From the NCBI GenBank assembly GCA_038087875.1, contig CM075977.1:142786001-142850000 (forward strand): a stretch of DNA of 64,000 bases, given 5' to 3'. Of the stretch, positions 47,113-56,100 are shown one piece after another (the stretch's first letter is position 1; every line of letters begins with the position of its first letter). Source of the stretch: Malacoraja senta. Lineage: Eukaryota. A program made the position numbers.

Positions 47113-50100
47113 TCAAGAGATTATCTAAAAAGGCAACAAACTGTTCTCAGAATGTTATTCTGTCCGCTGTTTCAAAGGCAGGGTTGAAAAGCATAGATTA
47201 TTTGGTCAAATTTCCCCTCACCGAATTTGTAGTCAGAGGATTAATTTGATTACATCAGTAGCATAAATCTGTGCTTATTCTAGTATCAGAATAAACTCTT
47301 GGCAAAGTCATTGGTAAGGTTTTAACAAACTTGCTGCAAGCCCTAAAATAATTTTATAACAAACTAATAAATACAAAATCATTATCATTCCATTTTACAC
47401 TAGGACATTTGGATGTTGAATGTTCTTATATATTCCTGTGATTTATAACTATCTTAATTCAATTTTTGACATGCAGTATTGAATCAAAATATAAATTGAA
47501 ACCATGCAACTTTGCAAAATTCTGATGACCATTTAATCAAACCTGGAAAATGTGGAATAAAGATAAAAGATATAATGCAATGATACAATAAGTACTCTTT
47601 TCTTCCTATGTCATTAGATATCAAATTCCAAATTACTGACTCTATCTACATTGTCTGGCAATTTCAGCTTTATCAACTAGTTTATGCTTTATCAACTAAA
47701 CTAAATTTCCAACATTCATACCAAAACTGTGAAGTAATAACATAGAAACATAGAAACATATAACCATAATGAATGACTGAGGTAAAAAGAGGTAAGGGCT
47801 GACCTAAAAAAGGTTTTTTAAACTACAAAAGAGGTTCAACAAGTTACACCGAGAAATGATCAGCTGCGTCATACTGAACTTTATATGGTCTGTAGATAAA
47901 CACTTAAAATTCTCCTAGGACAGTTATTGGTCTGCTATTTTAAAGTTAGAGCTAATCCATTCTAGCTGCATTGAACCTGCTGATGAATTTGCACATCACA
48001 CGTCCCACTCTACCCTGTACTCATTACTAAGTCATGGTCACAGAGGGTCGAATGGGGGGCTGTTGAGGTGTTCCATAATGTATGAAGTAGAGGGCCTGAT
48101 ACATTTATATCTGGTCCATCAGCTTTAGACCAGTCAAAACACATATAGTATAGCCCCTTTCAAGTGAAAAGTATTAGGAACCTTCACGAAAATTAAAGAA
48201 AGCTTTTTTTAAACTTTATTTTAATTAACATCAATGTTTGTAATTAATTTACATTGAAGATTATGTTTAATTTAAGTTGAAGATGATTTCAACTTATTTT
48301 TCTTTCTTTATTATTTTTCCAACTGTTTGTAAATGTCTTTGATTATCAGAGAATTCCAGACCTTCTGCATTCTGTGGGTGAAAGTTTAGATTTAACCACC
48401 AACCACTTGACATCCTGCCTTCTGGACTGTTGCAGCACAGATGGAAGGATGTTGGATGTTGTGCAACCACAGAAACCTGCACAGCTCTGGATATCCTGCA
48501 AGAAGGCAGTTTGAGGCTCTGACCAACTGCACCACAATCCAGCAGAATGTTTTGACTTCTGGCGAAGTCCAAAACTAAGGACTATAAACATAATATAGTC
48601 ACTAATAAAGCCTATAAGTACACGATTTTGCTTCCCATTGTGTATTTGAGATGAATAGTATAAATGTTTTTCAAAGTAAATTGGAGAAGTACATGTGGGA
48701 GAGAGGAATACAAATGATTTCAGAGAGTAGATTAAATTTGGTAGGAAGAAATTTGAATGAGTTGTGTGGGCCGTAGACTCCAACACAGATCAATTGGCTG
48801 AATTACTGTTTGAATGGTACATTCGATGTAGCTCTATGTGACCTAAATGGCCAAATAAGATGACCTAAATGGCCAAATAAGATGATAACTTTCTTTAAAT
48901 TTATCTACAGACAACGCAGAAATAGGAAAATTACTCTGTTTTAGATTTCCTCTGATATTTAGCTTACTCCTCCCTATAATTCTAGCGTCTCTCATACTGA
49001 GTTTCTCTCCCTTTGAACATTACTTCCCATTTGCTCAATTGTCATTAGTTCCGATTATAGTGCTCATTTACAATTATCAATTTATCAGGACCTATCAAAA
49101 TTGTCTTAAGATTTTATTTTAAAGAATGAGTGTAAGCATATCAGTAGCTCCAAAATAAAAATGTAAAAGCCCACAGGACAATTTTATCTCCCCCTCCTCT
49201 GATGAAGTAATTCATTTTGCTCAGATGTAGCTCTTTGGGTGTCATCATTTACCTTGACTTTAATGTTGTATTCCAGGTTCGATTATGTTTAGTGTATTTA
49301 TAAGTCATTTTTAAAATGAAAGCCTAACAAAGACTTATTGGGCTGTTCCCACCTCAGATAATCCTGGTATCACCTTCAGACCATATTTGTAGGCCAAAAT
49401 ACCAGGAGCTTTGCTGAAGGAAGTCTCTTCCTTCGGGGGAATGCGACTTTTTCTTGTCGTATCCCCTTTCTCTGCCTCCGTCTGCGCTGAGGCCAAAATG
49501 GCGGAGCTGCCAGCCTCCAACTCCAACTGCGACCAACCGACCTCGAGGCTCCGGAGGCAGAGCCAGGACTTGCCAGTGCGGGGCTGGCCAACTTCGGGGC
49601 TGCGGTGGCGTTCCGGCAGTGGCAACCGAGGATGCTGGTGGCGACCTGAGACCGGAGGTGTAGAGCCGTGCATGTTCCTTTAACATGGTGACCTCACTTC
49701 TACTAACCACTCCCCATTAGCTTCAGTATAAATGTAACCTTCCCACCCCTAGCTCGCTCTCTAGCTCCGGTAACGGACCACGAACAGCTAGGGCAATATG
49801 TGTGTATACGAATACAATGTATGCAATAAACTAGAGTGAAGACACCATGTGTTTGGACAGTCTTTACATGGTGTCAGAAGTGGGATCAATTCTGAAGGCC
49901 TCTCGGCTCCTCTCTTTCCTCCTGCTGGAATCTGAGAATGTTACTCTGTTGGGCGCCCGTGCATGCCAGGACCTCGGTTTGGTGTCCTTCCACCACGACA
50001 TCCACCCGGTGCAGACCCCCATGGATCCCATGTGCGAGTACCCCGACCGTTTTGACGAAGTATTGGGCAAACTACCCTGCAAGTACGAAATCGAGGTGGA

Positions 50101-53100: not shown

Positions 53101-56100
53101 CTAGCTCCGGTAACGGACCACGAACAGCTAGGGCAATATGTGTGTATACGAATACAATGTATGCAATAAACTACAGTGAAGACACCATGTGTTTGGACAG
53201 TCTTTACAGGAGGCTCGGCCGCGGGCCCGGTGGACGACATCGTCGGGAGCTCGCAGGTCACAGGTGGGTGACCTGTTTTTCTGGGGCTCCCACAACTACA
53301 GCTGCGTCCGCTGGACTGGAGGGCGGCAGCTTCGGCAGCTTCGGCCACCCCGGGCCACGGAGTTTGAACCGGCCCGTCGCGGACGGAGCACGGTTTCAGC
53401 CGCGGGACTGACTTACCATCACCCAGCGGGGTCACAGCGTCAGAAGCCTGGATTGCCTCAGCGCAGAGGGAGAACAAAGAGGGAAGAGACAGAGACTTTA
53501 AGACTTTTGCCTCCATCACAGTGAGGAGGTGCCTGGTGAACTAACTGTGGTGGATGTTAATTTGTGTTTATTGTGTGTTTTGTTATTTATTATATGTATG
53601 ACTGCAGGCAACGAAATTTCGTTCAGACCGAAAGGTCTGAATGACAATAAAGGAATCTAAGTCTAAGTCTAAGACGCATTTGAGCAGGAAAAAAGGGATC
53701 AAGCCTGTTTGCCTACAAGTAATGTTAATTTTCTGCCTATGGGGTCAAAAGGTTATTTGATTTTCAGAAGCAGCATCCTAATTACTAAAGTTATTACTGA
53801 TGGTGACATGGATGATTTTTAACTCACTGGAATTAGTATTTCTACACCATAATCAAATGAACCATTGAGGCAACTCGAACAATTTCCACGATATTTTGTA
53901 ATTGTGGCTTTCTGTCTTCACAATAGAAAGTACAAGAATCATACTTGAAACCATTTGATAAAATGTACAAGGGAATATAGTGAGGATAGAAACTGATAAG
54001 CCCTTGGATCAGATGGCCTAAAATCCCAGATTTCAAAGAGGGAGCTTTGGAGATCATCATGTTTTGAACTACCATATCTCTTATGTTACAGAATGGTCAA
54101 TGTGGATTGAAAAATTACAAATGTAAGAGAAATGTTCAAGAAAAGAGAGTGAGAAAACAGGCAAATGTTTGAACATTTATTAGGATTCTTGAATCCGGCT
54201 ACTTATAACATAATAAGAAAATAATGATAACATTTTAGTGAAAGAAACAATTTGTCAAATCCTTGAGAGATTGCTGAAGTTGTAACTAGTTATGTAGATG
54301 GTATATATATTCTTATACAAGGCATTTAATAATGTGACACCACAATATTATTATGCAAGATTCAAGTGTGTTGGATTGGAGGTAATCCAAGGACCATGGA
54401 TTGGTCGACAAAAAACTGAGATTTAGTTCAAGTTCAAGTTCACATTTATTGTCACATGCACCAATTAAGGTACAGTGAAAGGTACACAAAAATGCTGGAG
54501 AAACTCAGCGGGTGCAGCAGCATCTATGGAGCGAAGGAAATAGGCAACATTTCGGGCCGAAACCCTTCTTCAGAGGCCCGAAATGTTGCCTATTTCCTTC
54601 GCTCCATAGATGCTGCTGCACCCGCTGAGTTTCTCCAGCATTTTTGTGTACCTTCGATTTTCCAACATCTGCAGTACCTTCTTATACACAAGGTACAGTG
54701 AAGATTGAGTTACCATGCAATCAAAAAGATACCAATCAAAAAGAACACAATATACAATAGAATTTAACATAAACATCCACCATTTATTGACCCAATAAAT
54801 GGGTCACTTTTGGGTTGGTAGGACTGCTGCAAGGAGCAGTGCTTAAACTTCAACTGATTACATTCCATGTCAATGACATAGATAAGGGGATTGAATGTCA
54901 TCCAGCTTTGTTTTTGGGATGATGGGGGGATTTATCTGTTGTTATCTGGAGCTTGAAAAGACAGGTGAATATTGAAAAGTTAATTCCTCTGGTTATAGAG
55001 TCTGGAACTAGTTTGTTGAGTTTCAGGGTATACAAAGCTGGCAGATCTACTGTCTCACAGCACCAGAGACCCAGGTTCGATCCTGACCTCGGGTGCTGTC
55101 TGTTTGGTTTGCACATCCTTCTTGTGGTCCTTCAGGGTGCTCCGGTTTCCTCCCATATTCCAAAGACATGCAGGTTTGTAGGTTAATTGGCCTTGTAAAA
55201 TTTCTCCCCATGTGTAGAGAGTAGATGAGAAAATTGGATAACATAAAGCTAGTGTGAATGAGTGATCAATAGTCAGCGTGGACTTGGTGGGCCAAAGTGC
55301 CTGTTTCTATGCTGTGTCTCTAAACTAAACAAAAATGTTTATTAATTTCCAGGACATAAATTCCGTATCTTTGTCTGAGGTTTCAGTTCAGTTTCAGTTT
55401 TGTTTATTGTCACATGTGCCAAGGTACAGTGAAAAACTTTCTGTCGTGTGCTAACCAGTCAGCAGAAAGACAATACATAATTACAATCGATCCATTTACA
55501 GTGTAAAGGGTCACTCAAACCTAGGTCAATGGGATTGATGGCAGTCAGGCTAAAGAATGAAGAATTATTCAAATATTCAGAGATTAATGAAGTAAGCAGG
55601 TCACAGCTGTTCCACAATCTAGATAGGGGTGAACTGGATGTGCCAGTTAGCCTCTTCCTGAAATGGCAGGGAAGTTAATGGGAAACAATGACCAGAACTT
55701 GTATATACTGCAAACCTGATGCATATTTGATAAAATGTGCAACCTAAAGTTTAAAGAATAACTTACAGAGTTCTGGAAACATTGGCTGGGAATTTCCTCG
55801 AAGCTGCTCCCTCTCCACCGCACTTCTGGAGAAGTTACGGCGGCCTGTTTGCACGAATACACTGGCTGGGTTTAGGAGTAAAGGGAAAACGAGTTATGGA
55901 AGGGAGAATTACATTTGGTTTTAGATCGTACTGTATTTGATGATTCTAAGTTAAAAGGTTAATTACTAATTAAACATCTTTAGTTACTTTTTCTGGAATT
56001 TAACTCACATTGGGGTGAATGGATTTAGAGATGTAAAATGTATTAGAAAATGTCATGAAGATGATTTAGGTTAAGTTTAGTAATCCTTAGGATCGACTCA

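What the first reader, a model, noticed from the sequence alone, without database searches (positions are those of the whole stretch)
49659..53208. Young gag-less Gypsy element whose intact RT-RH-IN frame starts in the LTR and reads through the PBS
Seen: the LTRs differ at 2 of 210 bp, and TSD, PBS and PPT are intact. Only ~60 bp separate the PBS from the protease C-terminal motif (LLGARACQDLGLV), so gag and the catalytic D(T/S)G half of the protease are absent. The junction is in frame with ATGs at 49847 (in the LTR, downstream of TATAAA at 49727) and 49868 (LTR/PBS border), giving 1015 uninterrupted codons. Inference: either a one-off deletion that is in frame by chance (about 1 in 3), or a semi-autonomous pol-only subfamily that borrows Gag and protease in trans.
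Basis: partly seen in the sequence, partly recalled or inferred. Interest (0 to 1): 0.65.

Follow-up and report, generated by a model that had tools for sequence, protein, structure and literature searches.

The report
Young Gypsy retrotransposon lacking gag and protease
This is a recently inserted Gypsy-type retrotransposon copy that lost its capsid gene and half of its protease in one deletion, probably a copying error, which makes it an ordinary defective copy with an unusually readable scar.

Summary
Window 49659-53208 is an LTR element with two 210-nt LTRs (2 differences), a 5-bp target duplication, an 18-nt primer binding site matching a tRNA-Leu(CAA) probe, a polypurine tract and one 1015-codon frame encoding RT, RNase H and integrase. 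Its closest solved relative is yeast Ty3. Its closest named relative is a little-skate gag-pol protein, 71% identical.

Homology to relatives begins inside their protease. 97 of 104 relatives carry the catalytic D(T/S)G just upstream and 84 carry a zinc knuckle; the window copy has neither. One deletion therefore removed gag and the protease N-half. RT, RNase H and integrase have no stops or frameshifts.

New here: the 8 nt between the primer binding site and the protease remnant, plus the last 5 nt of that site, exactly repeat a 13-nt stretch of the RT-coding region (P about 0.003). This looks like a templated filler from template switching. I favour a one-off reverse-transcription error that is in frame by chance.

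A pol-only subfamily is not excluded, because no eukaryotic genome could be searched. Interest is low to moderate.

The parts
49654..49658 (+). Target-site duplication, left copy (GGAGG)
   Evidence: Read directly; printed; identical to 53209-53213.
49659..49868 (+). 5' LTR, 210 nt, TG...CA termini. TATAAA at 49727 and AATAAA at 49825. Three short upstream reading frames, then the first ATG of the long frame at 49847.
   Evidence: Direct repeat family of 2 copies, 99% identical. 2 differences of 210, signals and upstream ATGs. Termini.
49869..49886 (+). Primer binding site, 18 nt, complementary to the 3' end of tRNA-Leu(CAA)
   Evidence: Identical to the first 18 nt of the tRNA-Leu(CAA) probe printed in PMC7997516. 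After nt 18 the probe and the element differ.
49882..49894 (+). 13-nt exact copy of an RT-coding stretch (50498-50510). Its first 5 nt are the end of the PBS. Its last 8 nt fill the space up to the protease remnant.
   Evidence: Longest exact repeat between 49869-49910 and the rest of the element. 16 of 5000 first-order Markov simulations gave 13 nt or more, P = 0.0032.
49847..52894 (+). Single long frame of 1015 codons: 16 residues encoded by LTR, PBS and filler, then a protease remnant, RT, RNase H, integrase and the family's C-terminal tail. gag is absent and the protease lacks its catalytic N-terminal part; both losses come from one deletion. RT, RNase H and integrase have 0 stops and 0 frameshifts.
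   Evidence: ORF list and translation; Pfam; BLASTP to relatives. 89 of 91 family-invariant columns within the part present are kept. The C-terminal motif is shared with relatives printed.
49895..49984 (+). Protease remnant, about 30 residues from the C-terminal end of the domain, without the catalytic D(T/S)G
   Evidence: BLASTP starts at query residue 17 against P0073 residue 447, inside its Asp_protease_2 match at 384-458. Against P0024 it starts at residue 204, inside that protein's protease match at 139-224. No Pfam protease hit in the window protein.
50255..50722 (+). Reverse transcriptase domain (Pfam RVT_1, residues 137-292)
   Evidence: E 3.6e-22. Ty3 RT 4ol8 matches residues 73-507.
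50912..51304 (+). RNase H region (RT_RNaseH_2 and RT_RNaseH, residues 356-486)
   Evidence: E 7.4e-30 and 1.4e-30.
51629..52108 (+). Integrase: zinc-binding H2C2 domain (residues 595-646) and catalytic core (residues 672-754)
   Evidence: E 6.5e-15 and 1.9e-13. Ty3 Gag-Pol 7q5b matches residues 73-773.
50498..50510 (+). Source copy of the 13-nt repeat, inside the RT-coding region
52988..52998 (+). Polypurine tract abutting the 3' LTR
   Evidence: Read directly; printed.
52999..53208 (+). 3' LTR, 210 nt
53209..53213 (+). Target-site duplication, right copy (GGAGG)

Best explanation
This is a young, non-autonomous copy of a single-ORF Ty3/Gypsy retrotransposon. The family is the one sources label 'K02A2.6-like' or 'Gypsy retrotransposon integrase-like' in fishes.

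One deletion removed everything between the primer binding site and the last part of the protease. That covers the leader, all of gag and the catalytic half of the protease.

The most likely origin is template switching by reverse transcriptase in the replication cycle that made this copy (inferred). A nascent strand ending in the last 5 nt of the PBS, or its complement, paired with the same 5 nt in the RT-coding region. It copied 8 more nt there and then switched again into the protease region. The shortened DNA, with normal LTR ends, was integrated normally and gave the 5-bp duplication.

The junction is in frame by chance, so ATGs in the LTR and at the LTR/PBS border open a 1015-codon RT-RH-IN frame.

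The copy cannot make particles or process its own product. It has most likely not multiplied. Its intact frame reflects youth rather than selection.

Shown: the anatomy, what is missing, the 13-nt repeat, and the youth of the copy. Inferred: the strand and order of the switches, and that the copy is a dead end.
For: - LTRs, TSD, PBS, PPT and ORF are as described.
- Ty3 is the best solved relative (7q5b, E 4.9e-79; 4ol8, E 8.3e-63).
- Homology to relatives starts inside their protease. 97 of 104 relatives have D[TS]G just upstream and 84 of 104 have a zinc knuckle.
- Of 107 columns invariant in 60 long relatives, 16 fall in the missing part and 89 of the other 91 are kept.
- A 13-nt exact repeat joins the end of the PBS to the point where protease homology begins (P = 0.0032).
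- The 8 nt after the PBS do not continue the tRNA-Leu(CAA) probe, so they are not tRNA read-through.
- Passages in PMC3187697 and PMC12657518 say that intramolecular template switches give deletions and deletions with insertions, and that second-strand transfer is guided by the PBS.
- Youth: 2 of 210 LTR differences; CpG observed/expected 0.80 in the element against 0.38-0.41 in the rest of the window.
- Neutral survival of the frame has P about 0.07-0.15 at the point estimate and up to 0.8 at the lower bound.
- The copy has 2 private changes at 90 columns invariant in all other sequences; 5 of 60 relatives reach that many.
- The window holds no second copy, solo LTR or gag/protease fragment of this family.
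Against: - The copy number of this arrangement in the source genome is unknown, so the one-off claim rests on plausibility and not on a count.
- The 8 nt after the PBS could be the family's native leader, with the 13-nt match a coincidence. No full-length DNA of the family was available to check.
- A deletion with a short templated insert primed by microhomology is also the signature of polymerase-theta end joining after integration (review listed, listing only).
- The first ATG has A at -3. The frame keeps 98% of invariant columns and its native C-terminus. A functional pol-only lineage would also show this.
- The Markov simulation is post hoc in its choice of the 42-nt junction window.
Confidence: 0.55

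Rival explanations
1. A pol-only, semi-autonomous subfamily. The deletion arose once in an ancestor, and copies carrying it have since multiplied. Gag and protease would come from full-length partners, while these copies supply or co-supply RT-RH-IN.
For: - LTRs, PBS and PPT, the minimal signals for reverse transcription, are intact.
- The 1015-codon frame is uninterrupted, with an ATG in good context (A at -3) and only short upstream frames that close before it.
- 89 of 91 invariant columns and the native C-terminus are kept.
- There is a precedent for a Gag-defective but pol-bearing parasitic variant: barley BARE2, which cannot express Gag and is packaged into particles (PMC3735527, passages).
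Against: - The same BARE2 passages tie its success to conserved dimerisation and packaging signals. Here the whole stretch between PBS and protease is gone.
- Without a protease the product stays a fusion, and without Gag it has no known route into particles (established knowledge of Ty3-type elements, recalled).
- An intact frame is expected at this age without selection.
- The copy has 2 private changes at family-invariant columns.
- The window holds no second copy.
- No protein with the junction peptide was found (0 of 11 and 0 of 7 candidates scored). This last point is weak, because the collection has no copy of this family closer than 77%.
Confidence: 0.12
2. A full-length copy was integrated and later suffered a chromosomal break. 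End joining then deleted about 1.4 kb or more and left an 8-nt templated insert copied from about 600 nt away, primed by 5-nt microhomology.
For: - The 13-nt repeat with a 5-nt overlap fits templated inserts of microhomology-mediated end joining as well as it fits reverse-transcriptase switching. Reviews were seen in the listing only; the mechanism is recalled.
- The element sits among repeats where such events are neutral.
Against: - The left edge coincides with the very end of the 18-nt tRNA-complementary stretch. That point is special in reverse transcription but arbitrary for a chromosomal break.
- The copy is young (2 of 210 LTR differences), which leaves little time for a second event.
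Confidence: 0.2
3. The copy was reverse-transcribed from a spliced subgenomic RNA. The donor would lie a few nt after the PBS and the acceptor inside the protease.
For: - Retroviruses and some LTR elements have a donor downstream of the PBS (recalled).
- BARE1 splices its RNA (PMC3735527, passages).
- The deletion is clean and leaves both ends of the element normal.
Against: - It does not explain the 13-nt repeat.
- A donor 8 nt or less after the PBS and an acceptor in mid-protease serve no known product.
- The flanking exon bases are not a good match to the usual junction consensus (read; the consensus is recalled).
- No splice prediction tool was available.
Confidence: 0.04
4. Assembly artefact: the deletion comes from collapsed or mis-joined reads of a repeated element.
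For: - The window has two runs of N and many repeats.
- Raw reads could not be inspected.
Against: - There is no N within or next to the element.
- Both LTRs, the matching 5-bp duplication and an uninterrupted frame form a coherent structure.
- An assembler does not create a templated 8-nt filler.
Confidence: 0.04

Closest known systems
Single-ORF Ty3/Gypsy gag-pol elements of fishes labelled 'K02A2.6-like' or 'Gypsy retrotransposon integrase-like protein 1' (e.g. Leucoraja erinacea LOC129707187 = P0073; Oreochromis niloticus cluster P0008)
   Same: RT, RNase H, integrase and the C-terminal tail are 41-77% identical over the 120 listed hits. The domain order is the same. The C-terminal motif is shared.
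   Different: Relatives carry a median of about 370-390 further residues upstream, with zinc knuckles and the catalytic protease half. The window copy has none of this and starts its frame in the LTR.
Yeast Ty3 (solved Gag-Pol 7q5b, RT 4ol8)
   Same: It is the best solved-structure relative, matching over RT through the integrase core (query residues 73-773).
   Different: Ty3 has separate gag and pol frames and a complete protease. The relationship is distant (E 4.9e-79 over about 700 residues).
BARE2 of barley (Copia superfamily), a Gag-defective variant parasitic on BARE1
   Same: Both are LTR elements that cannot make Gag but keep a translatable pol (PMC3735527, passages).
   Different: BARE2 belongs to another superfamily. 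It loses only the gag start through a small conserved deletion and keeps its packaging and dimerisation signals. It is abundant and is documented in particles. None of these properties is shown here, and the leader is missing.
Internally deleted defective proviruses made by aberrant strand transfer
   Same: The LTRs are intact and a large internal deletion has one edge tied to the PBS. The class 'deletions with insertions' arises from intramolecular template switching (PMC12657518; PMC3187697; passages).
   Different: Those are exogenous retroviruses in somatic cells. The PBS-adjacent inserts described there are tRNA read-through. The 8 nt here are not.
Non-autonomous LTR elements without pol (LARD, TRIM, TR-GAG)
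   Same: Both depend on a partner for replication proteins.
   Different: Those elements lack pol, and TR-GAG keeps only gag (PMC4350172, abstract in the listing). This copy is the mirror image, with pol kept and gag lost.

Membership tests
Ty3/Gypsy (Metaviridae) LTR retrotransposon | Two LTRs in direct orientation with TG...CA termini, flanked by a short target-site duplication | tested here: met
   210-nt LTRs, 208 of 210 identical. Termini TGTAGA...TTTACA and a GGAGG duplication.
Ty3/Gypsy (Metaviridae) LTR retrotransposon | tRNA primer binding site next to the 5' LTR and a polypurine tract next to the 3' LTR | tested here: met
   The 18 nt at 49869-49886 equal the first 18 nt of a tRNA-Leu(CAA) probe. 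The purine run is at 52988-52998.
Ty3/Gypsy (Metaviridae) LTR retrotransposon | pol domain order RT, RNase H, integrase (integrase last, unlike Copia) | tested here: met
   Pfam order is RVT_1 137-292, RNase H 356-486, H2C2 595-646, rve 672-754. The best solved relative is Ty3.
Ty3/Gypsy (Metaviridae) LTR retrotransposon | Conserved residues of RT, RNase H and integrase present | tested here: met
   89 of 91 columns invariant in 60 long relatives are kept within the part present. The 60 were the first 60 by id of the listed relatives of at least 1290 aa; the total number of such relatives was not printed.
Autonomous Ty3/Gypsy element | gag with a nucleocapsid zinc knuckle | tested here: not met
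   No gag family in Pfam. 84 of 104 relatives have a knuckle upstream of the aligned start; the window copy has only 16 non-homologous residues there. tblastn with 4 full relatives finds no gag anywhere in the window.
Autonomous Ty3/Gypsy element | Aspartic protease with catalytic D(T/S)G | tested here: not met
   No protease family in Pfam, while all 7 of 7 scanned relatives have one. Homology starts downstream of the D-T-G of P0073. 97 of 104 relatives have D[TS]G upstream.
Gag-defective, pol-bearing parasitic subfamily (BARE2-like) | The same deletion is shared by many copies at different sites | not testable with these tools
   No eukaryotic genome collection was available. The window holds one copy. 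The protein collection has no copy of this family closer than 77%, so (0 hits) are uninformative.
Gag-defective, pol-bearing parasitic subfamily (BARE2-like) | Packaging and dimerisation signals retained | tested here: inconclusive
   The signals of this family are unknown. Only 8 nt lie between the PBS and the protease remnant, so a leader-borne signal would be lost.
LARD/TRIM non-coding non-autonomous LTR elements | No pol coding capacity | tested here: not met
   A 1015-codon RT-RH-IN frame is present.

The most novel reading that the evidence does not exclude
The copy is one member of an amplified pol-only Gypsy lineage in a cartilaginous fish. Its RNA, carrying only LTRs, PBS, PPT and pol, would be packaged and copied with the Gag and protease of full-length partners, and its frame would be translated from an ATG inside the LTR. 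That would be an animal counterpart of barley BARE2, and it would show that packaging in this family does not need the leader or gag region.
Probability: 0.1. Interest if true: 0.55.

Novelty: new member of a known kind. Interest (0 to 1): 0.25.

Why it matters
As it stands, this is one more internally deleted LTR retrotransposon, and genome annotation should treat it as a non-autonomous Ty3/Gypsy copy.

Its small value is as a clean molecular fossil. The PBS, an 8-nt filler copied from the RT-coding region and the protease remnant lie side by side. Together they record how a deletion with a templated insert arose, in a germline copy of a fish element.

If the same arrangement turned out to be multi-copy, it would document a pol-only parasitic lineage in a vertebrate. 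It would also bear on where packaging signals lie in this family.

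Tried and rejected
- **Junction peptide search.** I searched the protein collection with residues 1-60. Among proteins of 558-1777 aa, 11 candidates were found and none scored E <= 10. Among proteins of 30-557 aa, 7 candidates were found and none scored. This is a dead end, because the collection holds no close copy of this family (best 77%).
- **Partners in the window.** tblastn with 4 full relatives and blastn with the LTR found only the element itself.
- **tRNA genes.** I looked for a tRNA gene in the window to identify the PBS. 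ARAGORN gave one tRNA-Pro call in a G-rich simple repeat. Rfam gave 0 matches. The PBS was identified from a printed probe instead.
- **tRNA read-through.** I rejected this as the source of the 8 nt after the PBS, because the probe continues differently.
- **Protease homology reaching back into the PBS-encoded residues.** Some relatives align there, but only with a 5-13 residue gap. The closest relative aligns without a gap from residue 17. I treat the upstream likeness as chance.
- **Short relatives.** Three relatives (P0016, P0066, P0096) begin near the same point of the protease. Each starts differently and comes from another taxon. They look like truncated ORF calls and not like the same junction.
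- **Flanking ORFs.** Four ORFs around the insertion site gave no Pfam family.
- **Literature.** Searches for 'gagless', 'gag-less' and 'pol-only' returned 16 papers, 15 of them listed. By title and abstract, none of the 15 concerns an LTR element lacking gag. The search 'LTR retrotransposon / lacking gag / non-autonomous' listed 20 of 1,088 papers. None of the 20 describes a pol-only animal Gypsy by title or abstract.
- **Collections not used.** Genome contigs holds bacteria and archaea only and was not scanned.
- **Supplements.** Those of PMC12657518 may hold counts of PBS-adjacent deletions.

Full report
**What is there**

Window 49659-53208 is a 3550-nt LTR retrotransposon on the + strand.
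- The LTRs are 49659-49868 and 52999-53208. Each is 210 nt, and they differ at 2 positions, one G/A and one G/C. They begin TG and end CA.
- The element is flanked by GGAGG on both sides.
- Directly after the 5' LTR lie 18 nt (49869-49886) that equal the first 18 nt of an oligo probe for tRNA-Leu(CAA) printed in PMC7997516 (passage read). This is the primer binding site, and it is exactly 18 nt long, because probe and element differ from nt 19 on.
- An 11-nt purine run (52988-52998) abuts the 3' LTR.
- TATAAA lies at 49727 and AATAAA at 49825.
- One frame runs from the ATG at 49847, inside the LTR, through the ATG at 49868 and the PBS to a stop at 52894. It has 1015 codons.
- Pfam finds RVT_1, two RNase H families, Integrase_H2C2 and rve in that order, and nothing for gag or protease.

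**What family it belongs to**

The best solved-structure relatives are the yeast Ty3 Gag-Pol polyprotein (7q5b, E 4.9e-79, query residues 73-773) and Ty3 RT (4ol8).

In the protein collection, 2193 proteins scored E <= 0.001 among the 8000 candidates scored, and 120 were listed.
- The closest is an unnamed 697-aa fragment, 77% identical over the integrase half.
- Next is Leucoraja erinacea LOC129707187 (P0073), 71% identical over 585 residues.
- The rest are 41-57% identical. They are mostly proteins of about 1350 aa that sources name 'K02A2.6-like' or 'Gypsy retrotransposon integrase-like protein 1', from fishes and marine invertebrates.

The window therefore most likely comes from a cartilaginous fish (inference). 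I do not take it for human. The two N runs were left alone.

**What is missing**

BLASTP to P0073 begins at query residue 17 against its residue 447. That lies inside its Asp_protease_2 match at 384-458, downstream of its D-T-G and of two zinc knuckles.

Of the 120 listed relatives, 104 align to within the first 40 query residues. Among those 104:
- 98 have at least 60 more residues upstream (median about 370);
- 97 have D[TS]G within 120 residues upstream;
- 84 have a zinc knuckle.

All 7 of 7 relatives scanned have a Pfam protease match.

I aligned the copy with 60 relatives of at least 1290 aa. These were the first 60 by id; the total number of that length was not printed. In that alignment 107 columns are invariant. 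Sixteen fall in the part the window copy lacks, and 89 of the other 91 are kept. The C-terminal motif of the family is also present.

Counted as breaks:
- gag is absent;
- the protease is truncated at its N-terminal side;
- both losses come from a single deletion;
- RT, RNase H and integrase have no stops and no frameshifts.

**The scar**

Only 8 nt separate the PBS from the first protease-homologous codon. Those 8 nt, together with the last 5 nt of the PBS, form a 13-nt string (49882-49894). The same string recurs exactly at 50498-50510, inside the RT-coding region.

It is the longest exact repeat between the 42-nt junction window and the rest of the element. Only 16 of 5000 first-order Markov simulations gave a match of 13 nt or more (P = 0.0032). 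The choice of window is post hoc.

The 8 nt are not tRNA read-through, because the tRNA-Leu(CAA) probe continues differently.

I read them as a templated filler. A growing strand whose end was the last 5 nt of the PBS, or its complement, paired with the same 5 nt in the RT region. It copied 8 nt there and then switched again into the protease region.

Passages in PMC3187697 state that intramolecular template switches by reverse transcriptase give deletions and deletions with insertions. Passages in PMC12657518 describe large internal deletions with intact LTRs, and aberrant second-strand transfers anchored at the PBS. Which strand switched, and in which order, cannot be told from one copy.

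**Age and the meaning of the intact frame**

- Two differences in 210 nt give K of about 0.0095 (Poisson 95% range about 0.001-0.034).
- CpG observed/expected is 0.80 in the element, against 0.38-0.41 in the rest of the window. Both figures fit a young insertion.
- At the point estimate about 14.5 substitutions are expected in the frame. 2.9% of single-base changes would make a stop.
- With an assumed (recalled) indel-to-substitution ratio of 0.10-0.15, the chance that the frame is still whole without selection is about 0.07-0.15. At the lower bound of K it is up to 0.8.
- In a leave-one-out count the window copy has 2 private changes at 90 columns invariant in all other sequences. 43 of 60 relatives have none, and only 5 of 60 have two or more. 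That is what slight neutral decay would give.

The frame across the LTR, PBS and filler is open for only 4 codons upstream of the first ATG. The other two frames are closed within the junction region.

Three short upstream reading frames in the LTR end before the main ATG, which has A at -3. Translation is therefore possible, but it has not been shown.

**How it most likely works now**

The copy keeps the signals needed for transcription and reverse transcription. It lacks Gag, an active protease and the entire leader.
- Its RT-RH-IN product could not be cut by its own protease.
- That product has no Gag part to bring it into particles (established knowledge of Ty3-type elements, recalled).
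- Its RNA has lost the region where packaging signals usually lie (inference; the signals of this family are unknown).

I therefore hold it to be a dead-end defective copy made in a single faulty replication cycle.

**Rivals**

1. A pol-only subfamily that multiplies with a partner's Gag and protease. Barley BARE2 shows that Gag-defective, pol-bearing parasites exist (PMC3735527, passages), but it keeps its packaging signals. This rival could not be tested, for three reasons:
   - The window has no second copy, solo LTR, gag or protease fragment.
   - The junction peptide has no match in the protein collection.
   - That collection lacks close copies of this family altogether.
2. A chromosomal deletion after integration, repaired by microhomology-mediated end joining with a templated insert. 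This fits the filler equally well. It leaves the coincidence with the end of the 18-nt PBS unexplained.
3. A copy of a spliced RNA. This does not explain the filler.
4. An assembly artefact. This is unlikely given the coherent structure, but reads were not available.

**Surroundings**

The element is nested in a GC- and CpG-rich stretch (about 49390-49658 and 53209-53660; CpG observed/expected 0.70-0.85). Its right-hand end is a dispersed repeat with partial copies at 17896-18021 and 18320-18461. The four flanking ORFs have no Pfam family.

The rest of the window is dominated by LINE fragments with endonuclease and RT pieces and by short interspersed repeats. Rfam finds nothing at gathering thresholds.

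**Novelty and verdict**

Internally deleted LTR elements are common, so this is a new member of a known kind. My paper searches for 'gagless', 'gag-less' and 'pol-only' gave 16 papers with 15 listed. The search for 'LTR retrotransposon / lacking gag / non-autonomous' listed 20 of 1,088. By title or abstract, none of the listed papers describes a pol-only Gypsy lineage in an animal. That reading would be new if a genome-wide count supported it; I give it about 0.1.

Unchecked: the copy number in the source genome, raw-read support, expression, and the supplements of the papers cited. The bacterial and archaeal genome collection was not relevant and was not scanned.

Noticed in passing
window 49390-49658 and 53209-53660: The insertion site lies in a GC-rich stretch with a high CpG ratio (0.70-0.85, against about 0.4 in the rest of the window). 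Its right end is a dispersed repeat ending in a short TCTAAG-type tandem. It is unclear whether the GC-rich part is another young repeat or a CpG island.
   Followed up: partly
window 54479-54558 and 54575-54654: A perfect 80-nt inverted repeat with a 16-nt spacer. It is built from a short interspersed repeat that also occurs at 7684-7818 and 41571-41705.
   Followed up: no
window 24697-25536 and 26056-27239: An ORF with a GDSL-lipase/OSK-like domain is followed by two arrays of 48-49-nt tandem repeats. This is possibly the first ORF and tail region of a LINE.
   Followed up: no
window 4590-8133, 35528-37212 and 41888-45217: Three copies or fragments of one LINE family are 90-96% identical to each other, one of them inverted. 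They carry endonuclease and RT pieces.
   Followed up: partly
window 59547-59627: ARAGORN calls a tRNA-Pro here, but the stretch is a G-rich simple repeat beside an N run, and Rfam reports no tRNA. It is probably a false call.
   Followed up: yes
proteins P0016, P0066 and P0096 (relatives from other taxa): Three of 104 relatives begin within the last part of the protease, near the point where the window copy's homology starts. Each has a different first residue. They are probably truncated ORF calls, but they show that protease-truncated pol frames recur in databases.
   Followed up: partly
window 19-99, 8565-8645, 14407-14487, 23490-23570, 54564-54644 and 61364-61444: Six copies of an 81-nt interspersed repeat, 65-81% identical to the reference copy. 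It is probably a SINE or LINE tail family of the host genome.
   Followed up: no
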